From IMG/VR virus record IMGVR_UViG_3300028388_003891, positions 5,513 through 69,512 of that record: a DNA stretch of 64,000 nt; one strand, given 5' to 3'. A program made the position numbers and the translations under genes. The notes beneath the pieces are model-generated. The model searched no databases. It saw only the letters and a program-made list of their open reading frames with translations, and was not told the origin of the DNA. The first letter of the stretch is position 1. Each line of letters starts with the position of its first letter. Shown one piece after another: positions 4,476 through 56,406 of this stretch. The DNA is from a virus. Taxonomy: Duplodnaviria; Heunggongvirae; Uroviricota; Caudoviricetes.

Positions 4476-5483
4476 ATGTCCAACAAACTTGATCCTAAGG
4501 GTCTAGCATTTGCCATTGTTCTGATTAAAGAGCAAATCGCCAAGCTGTCAACAAAGTTTGATAGTCGCCTTGAAGAAGTAACTTTGACGCCTGGCCCTAA
4601 AGGGGAAAGAGGCGAACGAGGCCCCCGTGGTGAACAAGGACTGCAGGGTGAACGAGGTGCACGTGGTCGTCGTGGCGAAAAGGGCGACCAAGGACCCCAA
4701 GGGTTACAGGGGTTGCCTGGCAGTAAAGGAGACAGCGGCGAGCAAGGCCCTAAAGGCGAGCAAGGCCCTAAAGGCCCTAAAGGCGAGCAAGGCCCTCAAG
4801 GCCCTAAAGGCCCTAAAGGCGACAAAGGGGATCAAGGACCACAAGGCCCTAAAGGCCCTAAAGGCGAGCAAGGTGACCGTGGTCTAAAAGGAACTAGTGG
4901 CGACCAAGGCCCTAAAGGCGACAAAGGTGACCGAGGACCACATGGCCCTAAGGGCGACAAAGGTGACCGAGGACCACAAGGCCCTAAAGGCGACAAAGGA
5001 GATCAAGGACCGCCCGGCGAAACACCTGATATCACTGAGTTCATGTCCAAAGCTCAGGGACAGATCACGGCGTGGGAATCAAAGGCTAATAGAGCTCTAG
5101 CAACGTCCACGGCTGGCGGTGGTTCGTTTAAACTACTCGATAACAGCGACGTTGTTCGCAAGCAACTAAGCGAAGTTACTGACAAAGCAATCCTGATATA
5201 TGACGTAAATAAGGGTAAATTTGTAGTTAGTGACATTGAGGAAATTATACTTTCTCTTGGTCTTGGAGCCACACAGGTGCAGTACACACGTCTAATCGAC
5301 GCCGATGGCAATGACACATATATCGGCGAAGCAGTCCCCGGCAGTGATCCTAGTGCTGCAGTATGGCGCATCAAACGGGTGACAGAAGATCCTGTTACCG
5401 AAGACATTACCATTTTATGGGCTGATGGTTCTGCTGAGTTCACTTTCATCTGGGATGACCGACTGTCGTTCAATTATTCATAA
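4476..5483 (+). CDS. Collagen-like triple-helix repeat protein with a non-collagenous C-terminal domain
   Basis: About 55 consecutive Gly-X-Y triplets ([15 protein letters not shown]...) encoded by tandem nucleotide repeats between about 4560 and 5020. Followed by a globular C-terminal domain. Confidence 0.8.
4737..5010 (+). repeat. Tandem 9/18-nt coding repeats (ggccctaaaggcgagcaa-type) of the collagen-like region
   Basis: Direct nucleotide repeats visible in the sequence. They are coding ([12 protein letters not shown] units), not a CRISPR array. Confidence 0.8.
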
Positions 5484-5528: not shown

Positions 5529-7328
5529 ATGCCAACCATCACAGATCCGGATCTGTTGAATGATTCCGCTGTAAACACTGGGAGCAATGAAGTATTCATT
5601 GACCCGGCGTTACGCACGATTCGCCTTAACAACGGTTCCAATAACTTAGATGAAACGGGCGTAACAGGTCAGGCTCTTTACTCCTTTCTCAAAGAAGAAT
5701 GGAAAGATGATACCAAAGGCAAGAACCTAATCGCGTATCCGTTCCCCCTTGTCGCAATTACCCCAGAGCAATTTGAATTTCGATCTGGTTGGCAGCCTGC
5801 CAACGACAGCTCACGCAACTTGATTCGCAATGCTGGCTGGAGAGAATTTGCCACTAACAACACCACTCTGAACCGAGAGTACATTGGTACAATTTCGCTC
5901 GGTTCAATCGACGGCGACCAATCTCAAACGGGAGGCGGCGATCAGGATTTTGCGTACTACGCGTTCTTCGATACAAGTGGTGCACCAGTTGCTGGTCCTT
6001 TCAACTTTGATTTCCCAGGACCAGTCAACCAGCCTGTACAAACGTACGACAGTTCCTCTTACGACTACCGTACCAACATTCTAACGATGTTCATCCGTCA
6101 ACCTGGAAAAACGTATGATCAGCAATCTACGGTTCAGATTGGTATTCCAGCTGGTGCAACACTACCGTATAACACCCAGCGTTTCCCTCTACAGGAAGCT
6201 GTTGATCTGAACGTAACTGTGTCAGATGCCACGATTGTAGCTAATGAAGGCGCTGGTGAAAAATACGACAGTAGCGATGTAAACGGCCCCACAATACAGT
6301 ACCTCAGCGACTCCGAGCTTTCTAATACGTTCGGCTATACGCAGGATCTTGTGGATGGTCCACACGGCTTTGGTATCAAGATCTCTGCAGAAGATGGAAC
6401 GGGTGGCTCTCTATCGCTGCAAGAGCTATATTCTTGGGTACAATACAAACTACGTCAAGAAGTTAATATCGAAGACAGCGCTGGATCTACCAAAGTTGGT
6501 AAACTGCAGGACCGCTTGCTACAGTTCGTTGGTCCTACCCTTGAAACCTTGAACGCTACAAACCTTGATGGTGGTGGCACCGGCACAGCAATTATCAACT
6601 TCTCAAACACCGACATCAACAACATTGGGCTTCGGGACAACACAGAAACTCTTCGTCCGTTCCCAATTCTGTCTTCTGGTACTCTTTCATTTTCTGATGA
6701 AATCGTACTTGACAGCGCCAATGCTTCGTACTTTGTTTTCTTTGAGTACACCAAATCTACAAGCGTTTCTGATTTGACAATTTCAGGTGTTGGTCCTTCA
6801 GCTGGCGATCCAGCTGTTGACAGTGCTGAATTTTCTTCATCAGCAACAGAACTGCCCCTACTTGCAGCTGATGATTATTTCCGTGTAACAGGTGCTTCCG
6901 ATCCAAACAACAACCAAGTGTGGCAAGTATCAGTATACCGTGACTCCAGCTCGTTCTCTGCTGTGACTTACGACGATCTTCCCGCAGCAAACGAAGGTCC
7001 GTTTGCCGGCACCATTCGAGAGCACCCAATCAATTCACCTGGAGCCTTGTTGGTAGACAGTGCAGGTACAACAACACCAAATACAGGCGGAATCACCGGC
7101 ACGTTGACTGGCGGTATTTCATCTGTGGCATTCTCCTATGACTATACTAACAACAGTCAAGGGGGTCGACCAAGTGGTGTTAACGCAGACACGGTTAACA
7201 TCTTGATCCGTGCTATTGGCTTGGATAATGGATCGTTTGTGGAACTGGCAGGTCAGACAATTACTGATCAAGCACAGACGTACTCAATTATCTCGGCTAT
7301 TGAGCGTAACTACGACAACCCAGCGTAA
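5529..7328 (+). CDS. Large virion structural protein (fibre- or decoration-like), function unknown
   Basis: 599 aa, rich in Ser/Thr/Gly/Asn with beta-rich character. Lies in the structural block, with a degenerate ATAAATA box at 5479-5486. Confidence 0.35.
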   Translation: MPTITDPDLLNDSAVNTGSNEVFIDPALRTIRLNNGSNNLDETGVTGQALYSFLKEEWKDDTKGKNLIAYPFPLVAITPEQFEFRSGWQPANDSSRNLIRNAGWREFATNNTTLNREYIGTISLGSIDGDQSQTGGGDQDFAYYAFFDTSGAPVAGPFNFDFPGPVNQPVQTYDSSSYDYRTNILTMFIRQPGKTYDQQSTVQIGIPAGATLPYNTQRFPLQEAVDLNVTVSDATIVANEGAGEKYDSSDVNGPTIQYLSDSELSNTFGYTQDLVDGPHGFGIKISAEDGTGGSLSLQELYSWVQYKLRQEVNIEDSAGSTKVGKLQDRLLQFVGPTLETLNATNLDGGGTGTAIINFSNTDINNIGLRDNTETLRPFPILSSGTLSFSDEIVLDSANASYFVFFEYTKSTSVSDLTISGVGPSAGDPAVDSAEFSSSATELPLLAADDYFRVTGASDPNNNQVWQVSVYRDSSSFSAVTYDDLPAANEGPFAGTIREHPINSPGALLVDSAGTTTPNTGGITGTLTGGISSVAFSYDYTNNSQGGRPSGVNADTVNILIRAIGLDNGSFVELAGQTITDQAQTYSIISAIERNYDNPA

Positions 7329-7592: not shown

Positions 7593-8054
7593 GTGGAATG
7601 TGGTGGCTGCACCGCATGTTGTGATGCGCTAGAAGTCAAGGACATCATTCTCGTCAAGCCAGCTGGCATCAAGTGTCCGCACTCTTGTGATATCGGCTGT
7701 AGCATATATGACAATCGACCACAAGGTTGTCGAGGCTTTGATTGTGTGTATCTTTTGGAACAGGATAGCCCATTAGAGCTTCGTCCTGACAAAACTGGAG
7801 TCATTTTCGAAAAAGTTACCACAAAAATATTCCTAGCACTAATTAAAGCAGAAAGCCTTGAAACGTGGGACACACCACTAATACGTCAATACATCAAACA
7901 ATTAAACAACAAGGGGATCTCCGTCGTTGTCAGCTCGTATGACAAGGGTTTGATGGAGGTGCACACAGCAGCTGCTCACACCCCTGACAAAGTTGTGCAA
8001 ATAACAATGAGATTGGCCAATCAATGGCAGCACCATCGTACTCAACAGACCTAG
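7593..8054 (+). CDS. Cys-rich protein with a CxxCxxCC-type putative zinc/iron-chelating domain
   Basis: N-terminus 'ECGGCTACCDALE...CPHSCDIGCSIYDNRPQGCRGFDC'. Ends with an in-frame TAG. Confidence 0.4.
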   Translation: MECGGCTACCDALEVKDIILVKPAGIKCPHSCDIGCSIYDNRPQGCRGFDCVYLLEQDSPLELRPDKTGVIFEKVTTKIFLALIKAESLETWDTPLIRQYIKQLNNKGISVVVSSYDKGLMEVHTAAAHTPDKVVQITMRLANQWQHHRTQQT

Positions 8055-16164: not shown

Positions 16165-17607
16165 TCATGCAACCGCATAACGATCGCTCATGATTGTGTC
16201 AAGCATTACAGAATGCGGTGTCAACGTGCCTCCTAGCAACCCTTTAACGACTGCAGGACTTGCACCGCTGACGAGTGCTGCTCCGCTTTCATGCATCGTC
16301 ACAGGAATGTTATTGCCACGATCACACACATTCCACCATACAAGCTGAGGAACCTCGTATCCAGCTTTGCTGAACATCTCACGAGCCATTTCCTGTGCGG
16401 TAAAGTTAGTGCCTCGCCGTTGCACAAAGGGATGATCAAACTGCATATCGCTGATCACCAACAGATGCGTTGGCATGTCCTCTTGCGACAGATTAGCACG
16501 CTTTGCTGCAGTCAGTACTGCCTTAAATGTTTTCTGCAAATCGGTGTTCGCACCCCAGCCTGCAGATTCAACACTCTGCCAGCGCTGTTTCAGCGTTTTG
16601 CCTTTGATTACTTGCATTTGCGGACGCTCACTAAACGTAATGAACTGATCCTTAAAGATCGAAGTATTACGCTCGGCAAGGTACATTGCCAGAGACGTCG
16701 ACACGTCCATCGCTGTAACCGTTCCCGACCCCAGCGTTTGATTCATCGAGCACGACACGTCACAAACAACCATAAATCGAGCGTTGCTGTCGCCAATGTA
16801 ATCAGGCAGCGCTTTCCACTGTGCATCAGCCACTTGTGCATCACCGAGACGCAGTGATTTAACGATGTCGTATGGAAACACAGCACTTGCATTGACCTTG
16901 ACATCAGCATCCCCACGAGACAACTTTGCGCGGTACGAAGCATAGCCATCAGGATCGTGGCGGTAGAACGCTGCCTGGTAACGGGCTGCCGCAACCGACG
17001 GCACATGGCTGTAGGTGATCTGCGACCATTCATTGGCACACATACGCTGCTCGACAGTGTCGGACAGCGGCACAATCAATCTGCGCCACGCTTTTTCGTT
17101 GCGAACACCTGCTGCCTTAATAAGCGGCCGGGCCCCTTTCTTCACTTTACGTGGGGCCCACTTAGCCGCAAGACCATTGCCTTGCTCGATTGCTGTAACC
17201 CACAGCTCTGCTGCAAATGACTCGAGTGGTGTACCGAACGCCGCTTGAAGGTCGTCCCAGCGGCCAACTTCCGGAAGACGCTGTATTAGCGTCTGCGCTA
17301 CCTCTCGTAGCTCGGGGTTTGGTGCACCAGCAAGACCATTGATAATAAGGCGAACCGTTTCACGCTCGCCAGCACCACCACGAATGTCGCGGCCCCACAG
17401 CACAATACGCATTGCGTATTCTGGATTTTCCTGATACGCAGCCATAAACTGCCCAATCAGGTCTTTTCCCCGAGAAGAGCCTATCTGAAAAAACAGATCA
17501 ACGCAATCATTTAGCGAGCTGTGGAACGCTTCCATCCCATTCTCGGTGATCGTTGTGTTGGTCATTTGTGCCGCAAGTTTGCTTACTTGTGTCATAATAA
17601 TCTCCAA
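16165..17607 (-). CDS. vWA-domain protein (tentatively DUF2828; possibly Ro60/TROVE-related)
   Basis: 480 aa. MIDAS-type motif 'VVCDVSCSM' (DxSxS), a helical N-terminal domain and 'GMEAFHSS...DLFFQIG' N-terminus. Minus-strand terminator hairpin at about 16130-16160. Confidence 0.5.
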   Translation of the reverse strand: MEIIMTQVSKLAAQMTNTTITENGMEAFHSSLNDCVDLFFQIGSSRGKDLIGQFMAAYQENPEYAMRIVLWGRDIRGGAGERETVRLIINGLAGAPNPELREVAQTLIQRLPEVGRWDDLQAAFGTPLESFAAELWVTAIEQGNGLAAKWAPRKVKKGARPLIKAAGVRNEKAWRRLIVPLSDTVEQRMCANEWSQITYSHVPSVAAARYQAAFYRHDPDGYASYRAKLSRGDADVKVNASAVFPYDIVKSLRLGDAQVADAQWKALPDYIGDSNARFMVVCDVSCSMNQTLGSGTVTAMDVSTSLAMYLAERNTSIFKDQFITFSERPQMQVIKGKTLKQRWQSVESAGWGANTDLQKTFKAVLTAAKRANLSQEDMPTHLLVISDMQFDHPFVQRRGTNFTAQEMAREMFSKAGYEVPQLVWWNVCDRGNNIPVTMHESGAALVSGASPAVVKGLLGGTLTPHSVMLDTIMSDRYAVA

Positions 17608-17972
17608 AACAGACTGTACACTATCGCTACCATTTTAAATTTGCTGCAGACAGTCTTTGCTAGTAACGGAATGATTTTTCCTAGCGTTTGTTTGAGGACA
17701 AACCTTTCGATTGGTTGCTGTAATCATTCCTAAATTCTACTCAGCGAATAACGGGTCGCCTTGCTCATCAACGAGGTTGTCGTTGCGTACGATTTGAACG
17801 ACACCTCGATTTCCTCGCCGCGAAATTCCGTCAAAGGGGAGCAGTACGTACGTATACTCCCCACTGCTTATGATCGGGAAAACCCTTTGCTTGGTTTTCT
17901 TAATCCGTGTAGTTTTTAACATTCGAGTATCTTCCTTCGATCAAAAGCAATTGTCAACAGATAAATATCTGT

Positions 17973-28947: not shown

Positions 28948-29468
28948 TGAGTCTGCGTAATATAGCCCTTTCCACCAATCCAGCAGAGTTGTCTCATACT
29001 GAAGAGGATGATGTTCAGCCAAATGCTGTCGACATACGTCTCGATAAAGTGTGGCAAATTTCCAACGAGACGTTTACCCTCAGTGATAGTCACAAGGGGC
29101 ATCGTGGGTCCGAAGAGCTGTCGTTTACCCGTCATTTCCCCGACCATGAAGGCGAATGGATCGATCTATATCCAGGCAGCTATGAGTTTACCGCTAGAGG
29201 TACTGTGCTAGTTCCGCCTGGGTTCGCTGGGTGGGTAGTTACTCGAAGCACACTGAACCGTAATGGTGTCTTCATAACATCCGGCCTGTACGATAGCGGC
29301 TATCATGGAGTAATGGCCGGCGTAATACATGTATCTTGCGGTCCCTTTCTGGTTCAGCGAGGAACACGCATTGGTCAGTTTATACTTGTCGACGCTGAAA
29401 CATCTCATCAGTACGATGGCGATTACGGTTTGGGTAAAAAGCACGATGATAAGTACACGACTGCGTAG
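28947..29468 (+). CDS. dCTP deaminase / dUTPase-fold protein
   Basis: 'QPNAVDIRLD', 'VPPGFAGWVVTRSTLNRNGV', 'SGLYDSGYHG' and 'RIGQFIL' blocks characteristic of the Dcd/Dut beta-barrel. Its TAG stop (29466-29468) lies inside the following tRNA. Confidence 0.6.
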   Translation: MSLRNIALSTNPAELSHTEEDDVQPNAVDIRLDKVWQISNETFTLSDSHKGHRGSEELSFTRHFPDHEGEWIDLYPGSYEFTARGTVLVPPGFAGWVVTRSTLNRNGVFITSGLYDSGYHGVMAGVIHVSCGPFLVQRGTRIGQFILVDAETSHQYDGDYGLGKKHDDKYTTA

Positions 29469-29535
29469 CACAATCTGGTAGTGCGCTGAACTCTAAATTC
29501 ATGAGATAACGGTTCAAATCCGTTCGCAGTCACCA
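29459..29535 (+). tRNA. tRNA with anticodon CUA (amber-suppressor-like), CCA encoded
   Basis: Acceptor GACUGCG/CGCAGUC, D arm GCAC-AAUCUGGUA-GUGC, anticodon arm CUGAA-CUCUAAA-UUCAU (C27.U43 mismatch), T arm AACGG-UUCAAAU-CCGUU, A73-CCA. Confidence 0.5.
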
Positions 29536-31089: not shown

Positions 31090-31457
31090 TTGCATTTGCT
31101 GGTGGGGCGTTCCATTAACGAAATTCGATGAAGCACAACGAACGGTGCTAAGGACGGGGGTTCGATTCCCCCCACCTCCACCAAAAAGCATACTCTTCCC
31201 GCGAAAGCGGTGCGATGGAAGTCGTCATAATCAACCAAGGGAGTATGCTTTTTGATGGGGGTGCACTGGCTTCGACTTGGACTTAATAGCTTGTGTGGAG
31301 AATAGGTGCGGAAGCTACCTTAAACGCAACAAAGTAAAAAAGTGACGCAGCTAATGATGCTGTGTATGATGTGGCTCTAGCAGCCTGATCATACTGGGGA
31401 TTGACTATCCTTATTATCCAATAAGTCCGGGCAGGTTAAACCTGCCCGTTTTAGTTT
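31090..31457 (+). ncRNA. ssrA: Two-piece (circularly permuted) tmRNA gene: acceptor piece first, coding piece second
   Basis: Acceptor piece ends ...GGACGGGGGUUCGAUUCCCCC-CACCUCC-A-CCA at 31174. The coding piece starts at 31257 with GGGGGUG, which pairs with CACCUCC. The coding-piece head GGGGGUGCACUGGCUUCGAC resembles the tmRNA 5' head GGGGCUGAUUCUGGAUUCGAC. An in-frame tag ORF GCA GCU AAU GAU GCU GUG UAU GAU GUG GCU CUA GCA GCC UGA (31348-31388) encodes AANDAVYDVALAA. The 82-nt intervening segment forms a 13-bp hairpin. Terminator at 31427-31456. Confidence 0.75.
31427..31456 (+). terminator. Rho-independent terminator closing the tmRNA coding piece
   Basis: CCGGGCAGG-TTAAA-CCTGCCCG hairpin followed by a TTTTAGTTTT run. 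Confidence 0.65.
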
Positions 31458-31553
31458 TCTAATTGTAAACGGCCCCTTCTGTTGAATTACGTTTGATAGA
31501 TACGTGACTGTATGGTTGCTGAAAAACAGCAATCCTTTGAAATGGAGATCATT

Positions 31554-55984: not shown

Positions 55985-56016
55985 AGAATAGTGGAGGGCT
56001 AATGCCCATCTGCGAG

Positions 56017-56084
56017 CTCCACAACGACTGGCAAATGGCGCTGGGGTGTCCCGGAACGGAGGTTCGATTCCTCCCAGTTCGTAC
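56017..56084 (+). other. Truncated tRNA-like element (acceptor-like stem, one hairpin, canonical T arm), no CCA
   Basis: T arm GGAGG-UUCGAUU-CCUCC followed by CAGUUCG-U. Imperfect 5' partner CGACUGG. Preceded by a GUGGAG...CUCCAC nested hairpin at 55991-56023. Confidence 0.25.
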
Positions 56085-56245
56085 TACAACACCGGTTAGT
56101 GATACGAGTAACGATTAAGTTACAGTTGTGGAGCGGTACTATTAGGAATGGCTACAGCATCTAATTACTACGCAGCCAAAGAAAGCCATTCCGTAACAAT
56201 TAAGAGTGTTTGCAGCAACTAATCTTCCATGCTAAGGACGAGGCC

Positions 56246-56302
56246 GCAGGTTCGAATCCTGCTCCCCGCCATCGACGGTGGGGGTAGCTCAGCGGTAGAG
56301 CG
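56246..56302 (+). other. tRNA half-fragments: T arm plus 3' acceptor (CCUGC-UCCCCGC-C) followed 7 nt later by a tRNA 5' half (GGUGGGGG-UA-GCUC-AGCGGUA-GAGC-GC)
   Basis: The 3' strand UCCCCGC(C) upstream pairs perfectly with GGUGGGG downstream, a permuted or fragmented arrangement. The 5' half resembles tRNA-Ala. Confidence 0.3.
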
Positions 56303-56328
56303 CGTAGAAATACACTCTGTTTATTTTT

Positions 56329-56400
56329 GGGGGTGCCGTATGGGACGGACTTAGCCCTTGCAAGGCTGATGGTCGGGATCGTTACCCGATACCTCCACCA
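56329..56400 (+). tRNA. tRNA-Ala-like (UGC) with G3.U70 but a degenerate D arm; possibly a disrupted gene
   Basis: Acceptor GGGGGUG/UACCUCC (G3.U70), anticodon arm UAGCC-CUUGCAA-GGCUG, T arm UCGGG-AUCGUUA-CCCGA, A73-CCA. Preceded by a U-run and the tRNA 5' half fragment. Confidence 0.4.
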
Positions 56401-56406
56401 AACATT

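What the first reader, a model, noticed from the sequence alone, without database searches (positions are those of the whole stretch)
56241..56400. Disrupted or permuted tRNA-Ala locus
Three pieces appear in this order. First, an orphan T arm plus 3' acceptor strand (56246-56270) with no 5' partner upstream. Second, 7 nt later, a textbook tRNA-Ala-like 5' half (GGUGGGGG-UA-GCUC-AGCGGUA-GAGC-GC); its acceptor strand pairs perfectly with the upstream 3' strand, a circular-permutation geometry. Third, a U-run and then a tRNA-Ala-like 3' portion (56329-56400) with G3.U70, anticodon UGC and CCA, but only a vestigial D arm. This could be a permuted tRNA needing circularisation and ligation, which would make the nearby RNA ligase relevant. 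It could also be a gene broken by an insertion.
Basis: inference. Interest (0 to 1): 0.6.

Follow-up and report, generated by a model that had tools for sequence, protein, structure and literature searches.

The report
Phage Y RNA with tRNA-like domain
The apparent "broken tRNA" is the tRNA-shaped half of a small non-coding Y RNA, the kind that partners with Ro60 proteins, and it sits beside an odd but probably working alanine tRNA in a T4-like phage; it is a new variant of a known RNA class, not a split tRNA awaiting ligation.

Summary
Pieces 1 and 2 (56246-56302) are not tRNA-Ala fragments. They are the T arm, closed acceptor-like hairpin and D arm of a ~126-nt YrlA-type Y RNA (56203-56328). 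Its ends pair in a helix that carries a CAGCAAC motif and a GU/U-rich tail. A covariance model built only from six other phages scores it at 100 bits (E 7e-21). The closing helix and the acceptor-like hairpin covary across relatives. Homologous RNAs lie beside Ro60 or Ro60-like genes in Bromden, DyoEdafos, Sparky and Atuin. The window itself encodes a Ro60-fold protein (16165-17595, minus strand; DUF2828/DUF7788). Two stem-only Y-like RNAs with the same helix-CAGCA-helix-GU signature lie directly upstream of that gene, and a third lies at 56145-56202. Published work already describes YrlA RNAs as resembling circularly permuted tRNAs. Piece 3 (56329-56400) is a separate, complete tRNA-Ala(UGC) with a compact D arm, a form that recurs in other phage tRNA arrays. 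Nothing supports circularisation or ligation by the nearby Rnl2. Verdict: a new variant of a known kind, of moderate interest.

The parts
56203..56328 (+). YrlA-type Y RNA (whole element). Closing helix AGAGUGU 56203-56209 pairs with ACACUCU 56312-56318. CAGCAAC motif 56213-56219. tRNA-like domain 56225-56305. GU/U-rich tail GUUUAUUUUU 56319-56328.
   Evidence: Leave-one-out covariance model R2, built from six other phages: 56199-56327 scores 100.1 bits, E 6.8e-21, full length; the next best hit in the window is 24 bits. Fold. Covariation.
56225..56245 (+). Anticodon-arm-like hairpin UUCC-AUGCUAA-GGACG (56225-56240) plus variable-loop equivalent AGGCC (56241-56245). ACG 56238-56240 can pair with CGU 56303-56305.
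   Evidence: UUCCAUNNUAAGGACGAGG is conserved in all homologues. The same GGACG-AGGNC string forms the anticodon-stem 3' strand and variable loop of ordinary tRNA-Thr(GGU) genes.
56246..56262 (+).
   Evidence: The T stem covaries in alignment A4.
56263..56284 (+). Closed acceptor-like (AS) hairpin: UCCCCGCC, loop AUCGAC, GGUGGGGG. This is 8 bp, that is 7 bp plus a G(-1):C73-like pair.
   Evidence: Across 18 family members, cognate strands pair at a mean of 6.0 of 7 positions against 3.25 of 7 for non-cognate strands.
56285..56305 (+).
   Evidence: UAGCUCAGNGGUAGAGCGCGUA is invariant in homologues. The UA linker is a conserved YrlA feature (10.1101/312249).
A separate gene.
   Evidence: Cloverleaf fold. 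ARAGORN at the 80% threshold calls tRNA-Ala(tgc) at exactly these coordinates. The same compact D-arm design occurs in tRNA-Ala of L006/L046, L028 and L033. It is the only tRNA-Ala candidate in the array.
56145..56202 (+). Stem-only Y-like RNA (YrlB-like): helix GGAAUGGCU 56145-56153 pairs with AGCCAUUCC 56184-56192; ACAGCAUC motif; tail GUAACAAUUA.
   Evidence: Paralogue of 17668-17730(-), with compensatory pair changes.
16165..17595 (-). Ro60-fold protein gene (Pfam DUF2828 + DUF7788; PHROG 850 'RNA-binding protein'), 476 aa from ATG 17595, with GGAGA Shine-Dalgarno at 17605-17601.
   Evidence: Pfam. PHROG 850 also matches the canonical Ro60 of phage Sparky over its full length. AlphaFold2 model with pLDDT 91.7. 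The top six Foldseek PDB hits are all Ro60, full length, E 1e-8 to 2e-6, TM score (query-normalised) 0.48-0.63. A database protein is identical to the ATG-start version.
17604..17730 (-). Two stem-only Y-like RNAs directly upstream of the Ro60-like gene, on the same strand. First: GGAAUGAUU 17730-17722 pairs with AAUCAUUCC 17676-17668, with ACAGCAAC and tail GUUAC. Second: AGACUGU 17656-17650 pairs with ACAGUCU 17617-17611, with CUGCAGCAA and tail GUUUUGG.
   Evidence: The same tandem modules lie upstream of the orthologous gene in L053, L054 and DLP_6.

Best explanation
Positions 56203-56328 encode one small non-coding RNA of the YrlA (Y RNA-like A) type. Its 5' and 3' ends pair in a helix that carries a CAGCAAC motif and a GU/U-rich 3' tail. 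This stem module is inferred to be the binding site for the phage's own Ro60-fold protein (16165-17595, minus strand).

The other end of the RNA is a complete tRNA cloverleaf, circularly permuted at anticodon-stem position 29/30 and with its acceptor stem closed by a 6-nt loop.

By analogy with bacterial Rsr/YrlA, the RNA would tether or gate the Ro60-like ring. It would present a tRNA-shaped elbow to a tRNA-binding partner, such as PNPase or tRNA-processing or tRNA-modifying enzymes. This step is inferred.

The RNA lies inside the tRNA array and is probably released from the polycistronic transcript by the tRNA-processing machinery. RNase P cleavage at the 5' end of the adjacent tRNA-Ala (56328/56329) would create its U-rich 3' end. 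This step is also inferred.

Positions 56329-56400 are a separate tRNA-Ala(UGC) gene that is probably functional. It keeps the AlaRS identity set (G3:U70, A73, CCA) but has a compact D arm.

Shown here: family membership, structure conservation, the Ro60 fold of the protein, and the genomic association. Inferred: protein binding, processing and function.
For: 1. Homology and structure. A model built without the window sequence scores the element at 100.1 bits, E 6.8e-21, over its full length. Members not used to build model R1 score 54-72 bits. In alignment A4, 92.5% of cells are paired against 79% in shuffles (0 of 500 shuffles reach this) and at most 48.5% when partners are slid. Ten pairs change on both sides, including 6 of 7 closing-helix pairs. 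The AS hairpin covaries.

2. tRNA mimicry. Re-joining the two halves gives a perfect cloverleaf that ARAGORN calls at default settings. U8, A14, G15, G18, G19, G46, C48, the U54-U55-C56 T-loop positions and A58 are all present in the sequence.

3. Association with Ro60-type proteins. Homologous RNAs lie immediately downstream of the DUF2828/DUF7788 genes of Bromden and DyoEdafos. They also lie beside canonical TROVE Ro60 genes in Sparky and Atuin.

4. The window protein has the Ro60 fold and shares PHROG 850 with canonical Ro60.

5. The stem module (helix, CAGCA, helix, GU) is duplicated directly upstream of the Ro60-like gene in the window and upstream of its orthologues in L053, L054 and DLP_6. 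DLP_6 has the same split layout, with the Ro60-like gene about 17.7 kb from a YrlA-like RNA in its tRNA array.

6. Rfam's best match for the region is YrlA. RNAs beside bona fide Ro60 genes score in the same sub-threshold range of 32-41 bits.

7. Published work describes YrlA as T arm, AS stem-loop, D arm, that is, a permuted tRNA mimic, and reports such RNAs in phages (PMC4201824; 10.1101/312249; PMC12135203).

8. tRNA-Ala.
Against: - The Rfam YrlA score is 28.4 bits against a gathering score of 69. An ordinary tRNA dimer in DLP_6 scores 29.8, so the Rfam match alone proves nothing.
- The published candidate Rsr-binding motif GNCGAAN0-1G is absent. This subfamily has CAGCA(A/C) instead.
- In the window the RNA lies about 38.6 kb from the Ro60-like gene and on the opposite strand, whereas published YrlA RNAs lie within 4 kb on the same strand.
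- The window's own fold is not significantly more stable than shuffled sequence (z -1.48). Its closing duplex (-18.5 kcal/mol) is only average against non-cognate flank pairs.
- tRNA-Thr dimers reach about 47 bits on model R1 because they share GGACGAGG.
- There are no expression, binding or processing data.
- The protein fails Pfam TROVE and NCBIfam Rsr. Shallow profile comparison recovers only the MIDAS motif, the metal-binding site of the vWA domain.
- For tRNA-Ala: the Rfam tRNA model gives no hit, the T loop is non-canonical, and no sequence homologue was found.
Confidence: 0.8

Rival explanations
1. A true permuted tRNA gene of the Cyanidioschyzon type. The transcript ends are ligated, perhaps by the nearby Rnl2, to give a circular intermediate. 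RNase P and 3' processing then open the acceptor stem to give a decoding tRNA.
For: The 3'-half-before-5'-half order and the 7-8 bp acceptor-like helix. The re-joined sequence is a perfect cloverleaf with anticodon GCU. An Rnl2 gene lies 1.8 kb upstream.
Against: The break is occupied by a conserved, covarying helix with a CAGCA motif and a tail that also occurs on stem-only RNAs beside the Ro60-like gene. The anticodon triplet is not conserved among homologues. A class-I body with anticodon GCU lacks the long variable arm that SerRS needs (established knowledge). Most homologues close the acceptor with stable tetraloops such as UUCG or GAAA. Homologues track Ro60-type genes rather than ligases.
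Confidence: 0.03
2. Decayed remains of tandem tRNA genes, or a tRNA gene broken by an insertion or deletion: non-functional debris in a fast-evolving tRNA array.
For: Phage tRNA arrays do contain pseudo-tRNAs; DLP_6 annotates some. tRNA finders and Rfam call nothing here. A plain tRNA dimer scores like this region on Rfam YrlA.
Against: The whole 126-nt architecture is conserved from mycobacteriophages to T4-like phages, with compensatory changes in three helices. The leave-one-out score is 100 bits. All tertiary-interaction nucleotides are intact.
Confidence: 0.03
3. The same Y RNA, but matured into two pieces. RNase P cuts 5' of the acceptor-like 5' strand (about 56276/56277 or 56277/56278), the upstream piece is trimmed and given a CCA tail, and the product is a base-paired, two-piece tRNA mimic with a free 3' end, as in M. 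smegmatis YrlA or two-piece tmRNA.
For: The AS helix has 7 bp plus one further pair, and a 7-bp stem is the feature that makes M. smegmatis YrlA an RNase P substrate (PMC4201824). T4-like relatives encode ACCA or ACCG directly after a 7-bp AS strand: DLP_6 has CAUCACC-ACCA, L007 has CCCCACC-ACCA, L012 has ..ACCG. Non-permuted relatives have an open acceptor stem plus ACCA.
Against: The window encodes C-AUC after the 7-nt strand, not NCCA. Most family members have tetraloop-closed hairpins. There are no processing data.
Confidence: 0.15
4. A tRNA-shaped decoy that works without the Ro60-like protein, for example by soaking up or diverting host tRNA-targeting nucleases or tRNA-modifying enzymes during infection.
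For: It sits in the tRNA array, far from the Ro60-like gene. The tRNA elbow is fully conserved. Many IMG/VR members have no Ro60-like gene within the 5-10 kb of flank available.
Against: It shares its stem, motif and tail module with the RNAs placed directly upstream of Ro60-like genes in four phages. Homologues are adjacent to Ro60-type genes in four cultured phages. The flanks available for the other loci are too short to show absence.
Confidence: 0.08

Closest known systems
YrlA (Y RNA-like A; Rfam RF02553) of Salmonella Typhimurium, Mycobacterium smegmatis and mycobacteriophages (Chen et al. 2014, PMC4201824; Wang et al. 2018, 10.1101/312249)
   Same: The order T arm, closed acceptor-like stem-loop, UA linker, D arm. 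Conserved tRNA tertiary-interaction nucleotides. A long helix formed by the 5' and 3' ends. Companion stem-only RNAs (YrlB-like). Association with a Ro60-fold protein. Presence in phages.
   Different: It scores 28 bits against a gathering score of 69. It lacks the GNCGAAN0-1G motif and has CAGCA(A/C) plus a GU/U-rich tail instead. It retains an anticodon-arm-like hairpin with a 7-nt loop. Its partner is a DUF2828/DUF7788 protein that fails the TROVE and Rsr sequence models. It lies in a tRNA array about 38.6 kb from the protein gene, on the opposite strand.
Thermus phage phiLo Ro60 with Yrl1/Yrl2 RNAs (PMC12135203)
   Same: A phage-encoded Ro60 homologue with adjacent Y RNA-like sequences.
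   Different: That protein was found as a recognisable Ro60 homologue in UniProt. The window protein gives no sequence match to any PDB chain and is linked to Ro60 only by fold and by PHROG 850.
Circularly permuted tRNA genes (Cyanidioschyzon merolae and some other algae and archaea)
   Same: The 3' half is encoded upstream of the 5' half. Re-joining gives a perfect cloverleaf.
   Different: Those genes yield decoding tRNAs through a circular intermediate. Here the break carries a conserved extra helix, the anticodon is not conserved, and the family tracks Ro60-type genes.
Two-piece (permuted) tmRNA, of which this window has one at 31091-31479
   Same: A T arm and acceptor 3' strand encoded upstream of the acceptor 5' strand. 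Such RNAs can be matured into two base-paired pieces.
   Different: This element has no tag reading frame or pseudoknots and no G3:U70. It has a true D arm and an anticodon-like hairpin. Rfam's tmRNA_permuted model touches only the T arm and ACCUCCACCA of the neighbouring tRNA-Ala, at 15 bits.

Membership tests
YrlA-type Y RNA | Gene order: T stem-loop, then a closed acceptor-like stem-loop, then a UA linker, then the D stem-loop. | tested here: met
   56246-56262, 56263-56284, 56285-56286, 56287-56301.
YrlA-type Y RNA | Conserved nucleotides for the tRNA tertiary fold (U8, A14, G15:C48 Levitt pair, G18 and G19 with U55 and C56, U54:A58). | tested here: met
   All are present in the sequence. 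The re-joined halves are called a tRNA by ARAGORN at default settings. The three-dimensional fold itself was not tested.
YrlA-type Y RNA | [quoted passage not shown] | tested here: met
   56203-56209 pairs with 56312-56318. Six of 7 pairs show compensatory changes across seven phages.
YrlA-type Y RNA | GNCGAAN0-1G motif on the 5' strand of the stem (candidate Rsr-binding site; PMC4201824). | tested here: not met
   The motif is absent. This subfamily has UUGCAGCAAC at 56210-56219.
YrlA-type Y RNA | Encoded within about 4 kb of a Ro60 orthologue, on the same strand. | tested here: not met
   In the window the distance is about 38.6 kb, on the opposite strand. The criterion is met by homologues in Bromden, DyoEdafos, Sparky and Atuin and by the window's stem-only paralogues at 17604-17730.
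YrlA-type Y RNA | Reaches the Rfam RF02553 gathering score (69 bits). | tested here: not met
   28.4 bits. RNAs beside genuine Ro60 genes in Sparky and Atuin, and the XaC1 RNA, also fail at 32-41 bits.
YrlA-type Y RNA | Bound by the Ro60/Rsr protein; modified by TruB and DusA. | not testable with these tools
   Needs immunoprecipitation and modification mapping.
Phage CAGCA-type YrlA-like family (defined here) | Full-length match to a covariance model built from other phages. | tested here: met
   R2: 100.1 bits, E 6.8e-21, model positions 1-143 of 143.
Permuted tRNA gene (decoding) | The 3' half lies upstream of the 5' half, and the two acceptor strands are complementary. | tested here: met
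Permuted tRNA gene (decoding) | A conserved anticodon and identity elements matching one amino acid. | tested here: not met
   The loop triplet varies (GCU, CCU, GAU, CAU, UAU, UUU and others) among homologues. A GCU anticodon on a class-I body lacks the long variable arm of tRNA-Ser.
Permuted tRNA gene (decoding) | A circular or ligated intermediate. | not testable with these tools
   Needs RNA sequencing for junction reads.
tRNA-Ala (piece 3) | G3:U70, A73, a 3' CCA, and an Ala anticodon. | tested here: met
   GGGGGUG/UACCUCC, ACCA, CUUGCAA.
tRNA-Ala (piece 3) | Canonical D arm and T loop; detected by standard tRNA models. | tested here: not met
   Not called by default ARAGORN or by the Rfam tRNA model. 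Called at the ARAGORN 80% threshold. The D region is 16 nt with no 8-9 linker. The T loop is AUCGUUA.
Ro60 / Rsr protein (partner, 16165-17595) | TROVE domain or the Rsr equivalog sequence model. | tested here: not met
   No TROVE hit. vWA_Ro60 scores only 20 bits against a cut-off of 27.7. No NCBIfam hit.
Ro60 / Rsr protein (partner, 16165-17595) | The Ro60 fold: an alpha-helical-repeat region followed by a vWA domain. | tested here: met
   AlphaFold2 model with pLDDT 91.7 and pTM 0.91. The top six Foldseek PDB hits are all Ro60, full length, E 1.1e-8 to 2e-6, TM score (query-normalised) 0.48-0.63. PHROG 850 is shared with the canonical Ro60 of Sparky.

The most novel reading that the evidence does not exclude
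This element represents an undescribed and widespread phage subfamily of Y RNAs that partner with a divergent Ro60 (DUF2828/DUF7788). The subfamily keeps a whole tRNA cloverleaf, including an anticodon-like loop, and occurs in two topologies. One is circularly permuted with a closed acceptor stem, as in this window. The other is non-permuted, with an open acceptor stem and an encoded ACCA (L027, L033, L043). In this reading the window copy, with its 7-8 bp acceptor helix, is cut by RNase P and given a CCA tail, producing a two-piece tRNA mimic that might be chargeable. The two topologies would also suggest that the tRNA-like domain arose from a single tRNA-Thr-like gene with a helix inserted at position 29/30, rather than from a tRNA dimer.
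Probability: 0.2. Interest if true: 0.7.

Novelty: new variant of a known kind. Interest (0 to 1): 0.45.

Why it matters
Y RNA/Ro60 particles are known in animals, in some bacteria and in a few phages, but what the tRNA-like domain of YrlA does is still unknown. This locus extends the system in three ways:

- To T4-like phages.
- To a very large protein family. More than 5,000 database proteins and 711 phage records belong to DUF2828/DUF7788, which standard models label as domains of unknown function and which here proves to have the Ro60 fold.
- To RNAs that standard Rfam and tRNA tools miss.

It also gives a compact, testable system: one protein, three stem-only RNAs and one tRNA-mimic RNA embedded among real tRNAs. 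That could be used to ask which tRNA-binding factor the mimic recruits. For annotators, it explains a recurrent unannotated gap in phage tRNA arrays. It also flags a recurrent tRNA-Ala design with a compact D arm that default tRNA finders can miss.

Tried and rejected
- Fetching relatives through the Rnl2 protein found nothing in IMG/VR.
- An exact match to the T arm plus acceptor strand found only an ordinary tRNA in an unrelated high-GC contig.
- The Rfam YrlA score turned out not to be diagnostic. A tRNA-Leu/tRNA-Phe dimer scores the same, and the true homologues in Bromden and DLP_6 are missed at E <= 0.1.
- A sequence search of the Ro60-like protein against the PDB found nothing. A 4-sequence profile found only an unrelated vWA-containing protein. 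A shallow profile-profile comparison with TROVE proteins recovered only the DxSxS MIDAS motif, the vWA metal-binding site. The link to Ro60 needed PHROGs and a structure prediction.
It was repeated after a homologue search.
- A second permuted tmRNA was considered and rejected. The 15-bit tmRNA_permuted hit covers only the T arm and ACCUCCACCA of tRNA-Ala.
- A tRNA-His-like reading of the G(-1):C73 pair was considered and dropped, because relatives such as DLP_6 do not have that pair.
- blastn with piece 3 alone found no homologue.
- The stretch 55985-56145 stayed unresolved.
- The promoter and terminator scan near the locus found nothing beyond chance.
- Nearby ORFs showed no further RNA-processing enzymes.
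- The source-contig lookup for the Ro60-like protein failed.
Full report
**Setting.** The window comes from a T4-like myovirus. It has Gp23 major capsid, Gp20 portal, tail sheath, UvsW, UvsX, clamp loader and family-B polymerase genes. Its nearest cultured relatives by capsid protein are Phage C48C1 (64% identity) and, more distantly, Stenotrophomonas phage DLP_6 (59%). A tRNA array runs from about 50.2 to 60.5 kb, and a permuted tmRNA lies at 31091-31479. ARAGORN at default settings and Rfam at gathering thresholds both leave 55985-56406 empty.

**Observation.**
- T arm at 56246-56262.
- UCCCCGCC at 56263-56270, the 6-nt loop AUCGAC, and GGUGGGGG at 56277-56284, which together form an 8-bp helix.
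- UA, then the D arm GCUC-AGCGGUA-GAGC at 56287-56301.
- A U-rich run.
- A 72-nt cloverleaf at 56329-56400 with G3:U70, A73, CCA and anticodon UGC, but a short D arm and an odd T loop.

Joining 56278-56305 to 56227-56270 gives a perfect cloverleaf that ARAGORN calls at default settings. The permutation geometry is therefore real, not a chance resemblance.

**What pieces 1 and 2 are.** At a permissive threshold the best Rfam match is YrlA, the bacterial Y RNA-like family (28.4 bits, gathering score 69). That score alone is not evidence, because an ordinary tRNA dimer in DLP_6 scores 29.8 bits and true relatives are missed. The case rests on comparative data.

blastn found junction-spanning matches in places where nothing is annotated: mycobacteriophages Bromden, DyoEdafos and Sparky, Arthrobacter phage Atuin, DLP_6 and Xanthomonas phage XaC1. 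All share UUCCAUNNUAAGGACGAGG, a T arm, a variable hairpin, and UAGCUCAGNGGUAGAGCGCGUA. Outer helices of unrelated sequence enclose this core: AGAGUGU/ACACUCU in the window, AGGAUGC/GCAUCCU in DLP_6 and GGACCCC/GGGGUCC in Bromden. A motif scan of IMG/VR added about 17 further permuted members.

The quantitative tests agree.
- Across 18 members, the two strands of the acceptor-like hairpin pair at a mean of 6.0 of 7 positions in cognate combinations, against 3.25 of 7 in non-cognate ones.
- Cognate flanks form more stable closing duplexes (mean -27.2 versus -17.9 kcal/mol).
- In a seven-phage alignment, 92.5% of cells are paired against 79% in shuffles (0 of 500 shuffles reach this) and at most 48.5% when partners are slid. 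Ten pairs change on both sides, six of them in the closing helix.
- A covariance model built without the window sequence scores 56199-56327 at 100.1 bits, E 6.8e-21, over its full length. The next best window hit is 24 bits.

The string GGACG-AGGNC also forms the anticodon-stem 3' strand and variable loop of ordinary tRNA-Thr(GGU) genes. UUCC-AUGCUAA-GGACG is therefore best read as a retained anticodon-arm remnant. The extra helix enters at the equivalent of position 29/30.

**Protein partner.** In Bromden and DyoEdafos the RNA directly follows a gene annotated 'RNA-binding protein' with Pfam DUF2828 + DUF7788. In Sparky and Atuin it lies beside canonical Ro60 genes with TROVE plus a vWA domain.

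The window encodes a DUF2828/DUF7788 protein at 16165-17595 on the minus strand. It is 32% identical to Bromden gp54. Sequence models for TROVE and Rsr do not recognise it, and PDB sequence searches find nothing relevant. However, PHROG 850 matches both this protein and the canonical Ro60 of Sparky over their full lengths. A confident AlphaFold2 model (pLDDT 91.7, pTM 0.91) has Ro60 structures as its top six PDB matches. These align over the full length, with E 1e-8 to 2e-6 and query-normalised TM scores of 0.48-0.63. All later hits are vWA domains only.

**Paralogous Y-like RNAs.** Directly upstream of this gene, on the same strand, lie two hairpin RNAs with the signature helix, (A)CAGCAA, helix, GU (17604-17730). 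A third lies at 56145-56202, abutting the tRNA-like RNA.

The two loci are paralogous and differ by compensatory changes:
- GGAAUGAUU/AAUCAUUCC against GGAAUGGCU/AGCCAUUCC.
- AGACUGU/ACAGUCU against AGAGUGU/ACACUCU.

The same tandem modules precede the orthologous gene in two metagenomic relatives and in DLP_6. There the protein (AAY80_139, 44.6% identity) is annotated as hypothetical, and the tRNA-like RNA lies about 17.7 kb away in the tRNA array. Bromden, DyoEdafos and XaC1 likewise combine several stem-only RNAs with one RNA that carries a tRNA-like domain. This mirrors the YrlA/YrlB pairs of Salmonella and M. smegmatis (PMC4201824).

**Mechanism.** Shown here: the RNA is a conserved structured RNA. 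Its distal half is a permuted tRNA mimic. Its stem module co-occurs with a Ro60-fold protein gene.

Inferred from the Rsr/Y RNA literature: the stem binds the Ro60-like ring, and the tRNA-like elbow recruits or blocks a tRNA-binding factor.

Inferred from position: the RNA is cut out of the tRNA-array transcript, and RNase P cleavage at the 5' end of the adjacent tRNA-Ala creates its U-rich 3' end.

A further possibility, at about 15-20%, is RNase P cleavage inside the acceptor-like hairpin followed by CCA addition, as in M. smegmatis YrlA. The helix has 7 bp plus one further pair, and T4-like relatives encode ACCA directly after it. The window, however, does not encode NCCA.

**Piece 3.** This is a separate gene. 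ARAGORN at the 80% threshold calls tRNA-Ala(tgc) at exactly 56329-56400, and it is the only tRNA-Ala candidate in the array. The same compact design occurs in tRNA-Ala genes of at least three other phage lineages (L006/L046, L028, L033): the D stem starts right after the acceptor stem, the loop is 4-7 nt and contains GG, and a 3-nt connector follows. Their D stems covary. DLP_6's own tRNA-Ala is canonical. The T loop AUCGUUA swaps the usual U54:A58 for A54:U58 while keeping U55 and C56, as read directly from the sequence. AlaRS depends mainly on the acceptor stem (established knowledge), so function is plausible but unproven. The Rfam tRNA model gives no hit, and no sequence homologue was found.

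**Comparison with known systems and verdict.** The element works like YrlA and is clearly its relative. It nevertheless fails three published or operational YrlA criteria: the Rfam gathering score, the GNCGAAN0-1G motif, and proximity to the Ro60 gene. Its partner is a Ro60 recognisable only by fold. I therefore file it as a new variant of a known kind.

The permuted-geometry insight is right, and is in fact how the literature describes YrlA. The ideas of ligation-dependent maturation, tRNA-Ala identity and a broken gene are not supported.

Noticed in passing
L027:8673-8790; L033:~6975-7110; L043 (minus strand, ~430-590); also L023, L029, L030, L039: Non-permuted versions of the same RNA. They are tRNA-shaped, with an open acceptor stem (for example GGCUGUG/CGCAGCC) and an encoded ACCA. 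A capped helix plus the ACAGC(A/U)A motif is inserted at the equivalent of anticodon-stem position 29/30. Three independent lineages carry this form, so the family exists in both topologies.
   Followed up: partly
window 16165-17740 (minus strand): The Ro60-like gene and its two upstream Y-like RNAs form a minus-strand cassette between gp23 and the downstream plus-strand genes. The syntenic position in DLP_6 and Phage C48C1 has no such cassette. The ORF finder's TTG start at 17607 is probably wrong: ATG 17595 has a GGAGA Shine-Dalgarno sequence and matches a database protein exactly.
   Followed up: partly
window 56329-56400; L006:3074-3143; L028:8517-8591(-); L033:2552-2623: A recurrent phage tRNA-Ala design with a compact D arm: no 8-9 linker, a 3-4 bp stem, a 4-7 nt loop and a 3-nt connector. 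The window copy is missed by default ARAGORN and by the Rfam tRNA model; ARAGORN calls the copies in the other loci.
   Followed up: partly
window 55985-56144: An unannotated stretch after tRNA-Val, with an orphan T arm (GGAGG-UUCGAUU-CCUCC, 56058-56074) inside an 8-bp stem (ACGACUGG/CCAGUUCGU). ARAGORN gives only a poor low-threshold call (a 101-nt 'tRNA-Cys aca'). No homologues were found, and the fold is no better than shuffled sequence. It may be a decayed tRNA or another tRNA-like RNA.
   Followed up: partly
window 31091-31479: A permuted (two-piece) tmRNA gene with tag peptide DAANDAVYDVALAA, called by ARAGORN and by Rfam tmRNA_permuted (95 bits).
   Followed up: no
window 29459-29535: A tRNA with anticodon CUA (amber-suppressor type; ARAGORN labels it 'Pyl'). 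DLP_6 also annotates a tRNA-Sup-CTA.
   Followed up: no
L012:1687-1820 and 1130-1223; L028:5323-5456, 7847-7923, 7243-7314; L002:1458-1567; L007:5311-5447; L052:2145-2208: Model R1 gives weaker full-length hits (30-41 bits) at other places inside the tRNA arrays of relatives. These may be further stem-only Y-like RNAs.
   Followed up: no
Rfam RF02553 (YrlA) applied to L050, L051, L052, L002, L003: Phage YrlA-like RNAs beside genuine Ro60 genes in Sparky and Atuin, and the XaC1 RNA, score only 32-41 bits against a gathering score of 69. Those in Bromden and DLP_6 are not reported at E <= 0.1, and plain tRNA dimers score about 30 bits. The current model cannot annotate this phage subfamily.
   Followed up: yes
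window 4476-5483: An ORF with collagen triple-helix repeats (Pfam Collagen, 7e-26), lying between the portal gene and the downstream structural genes.
   Followed up: no
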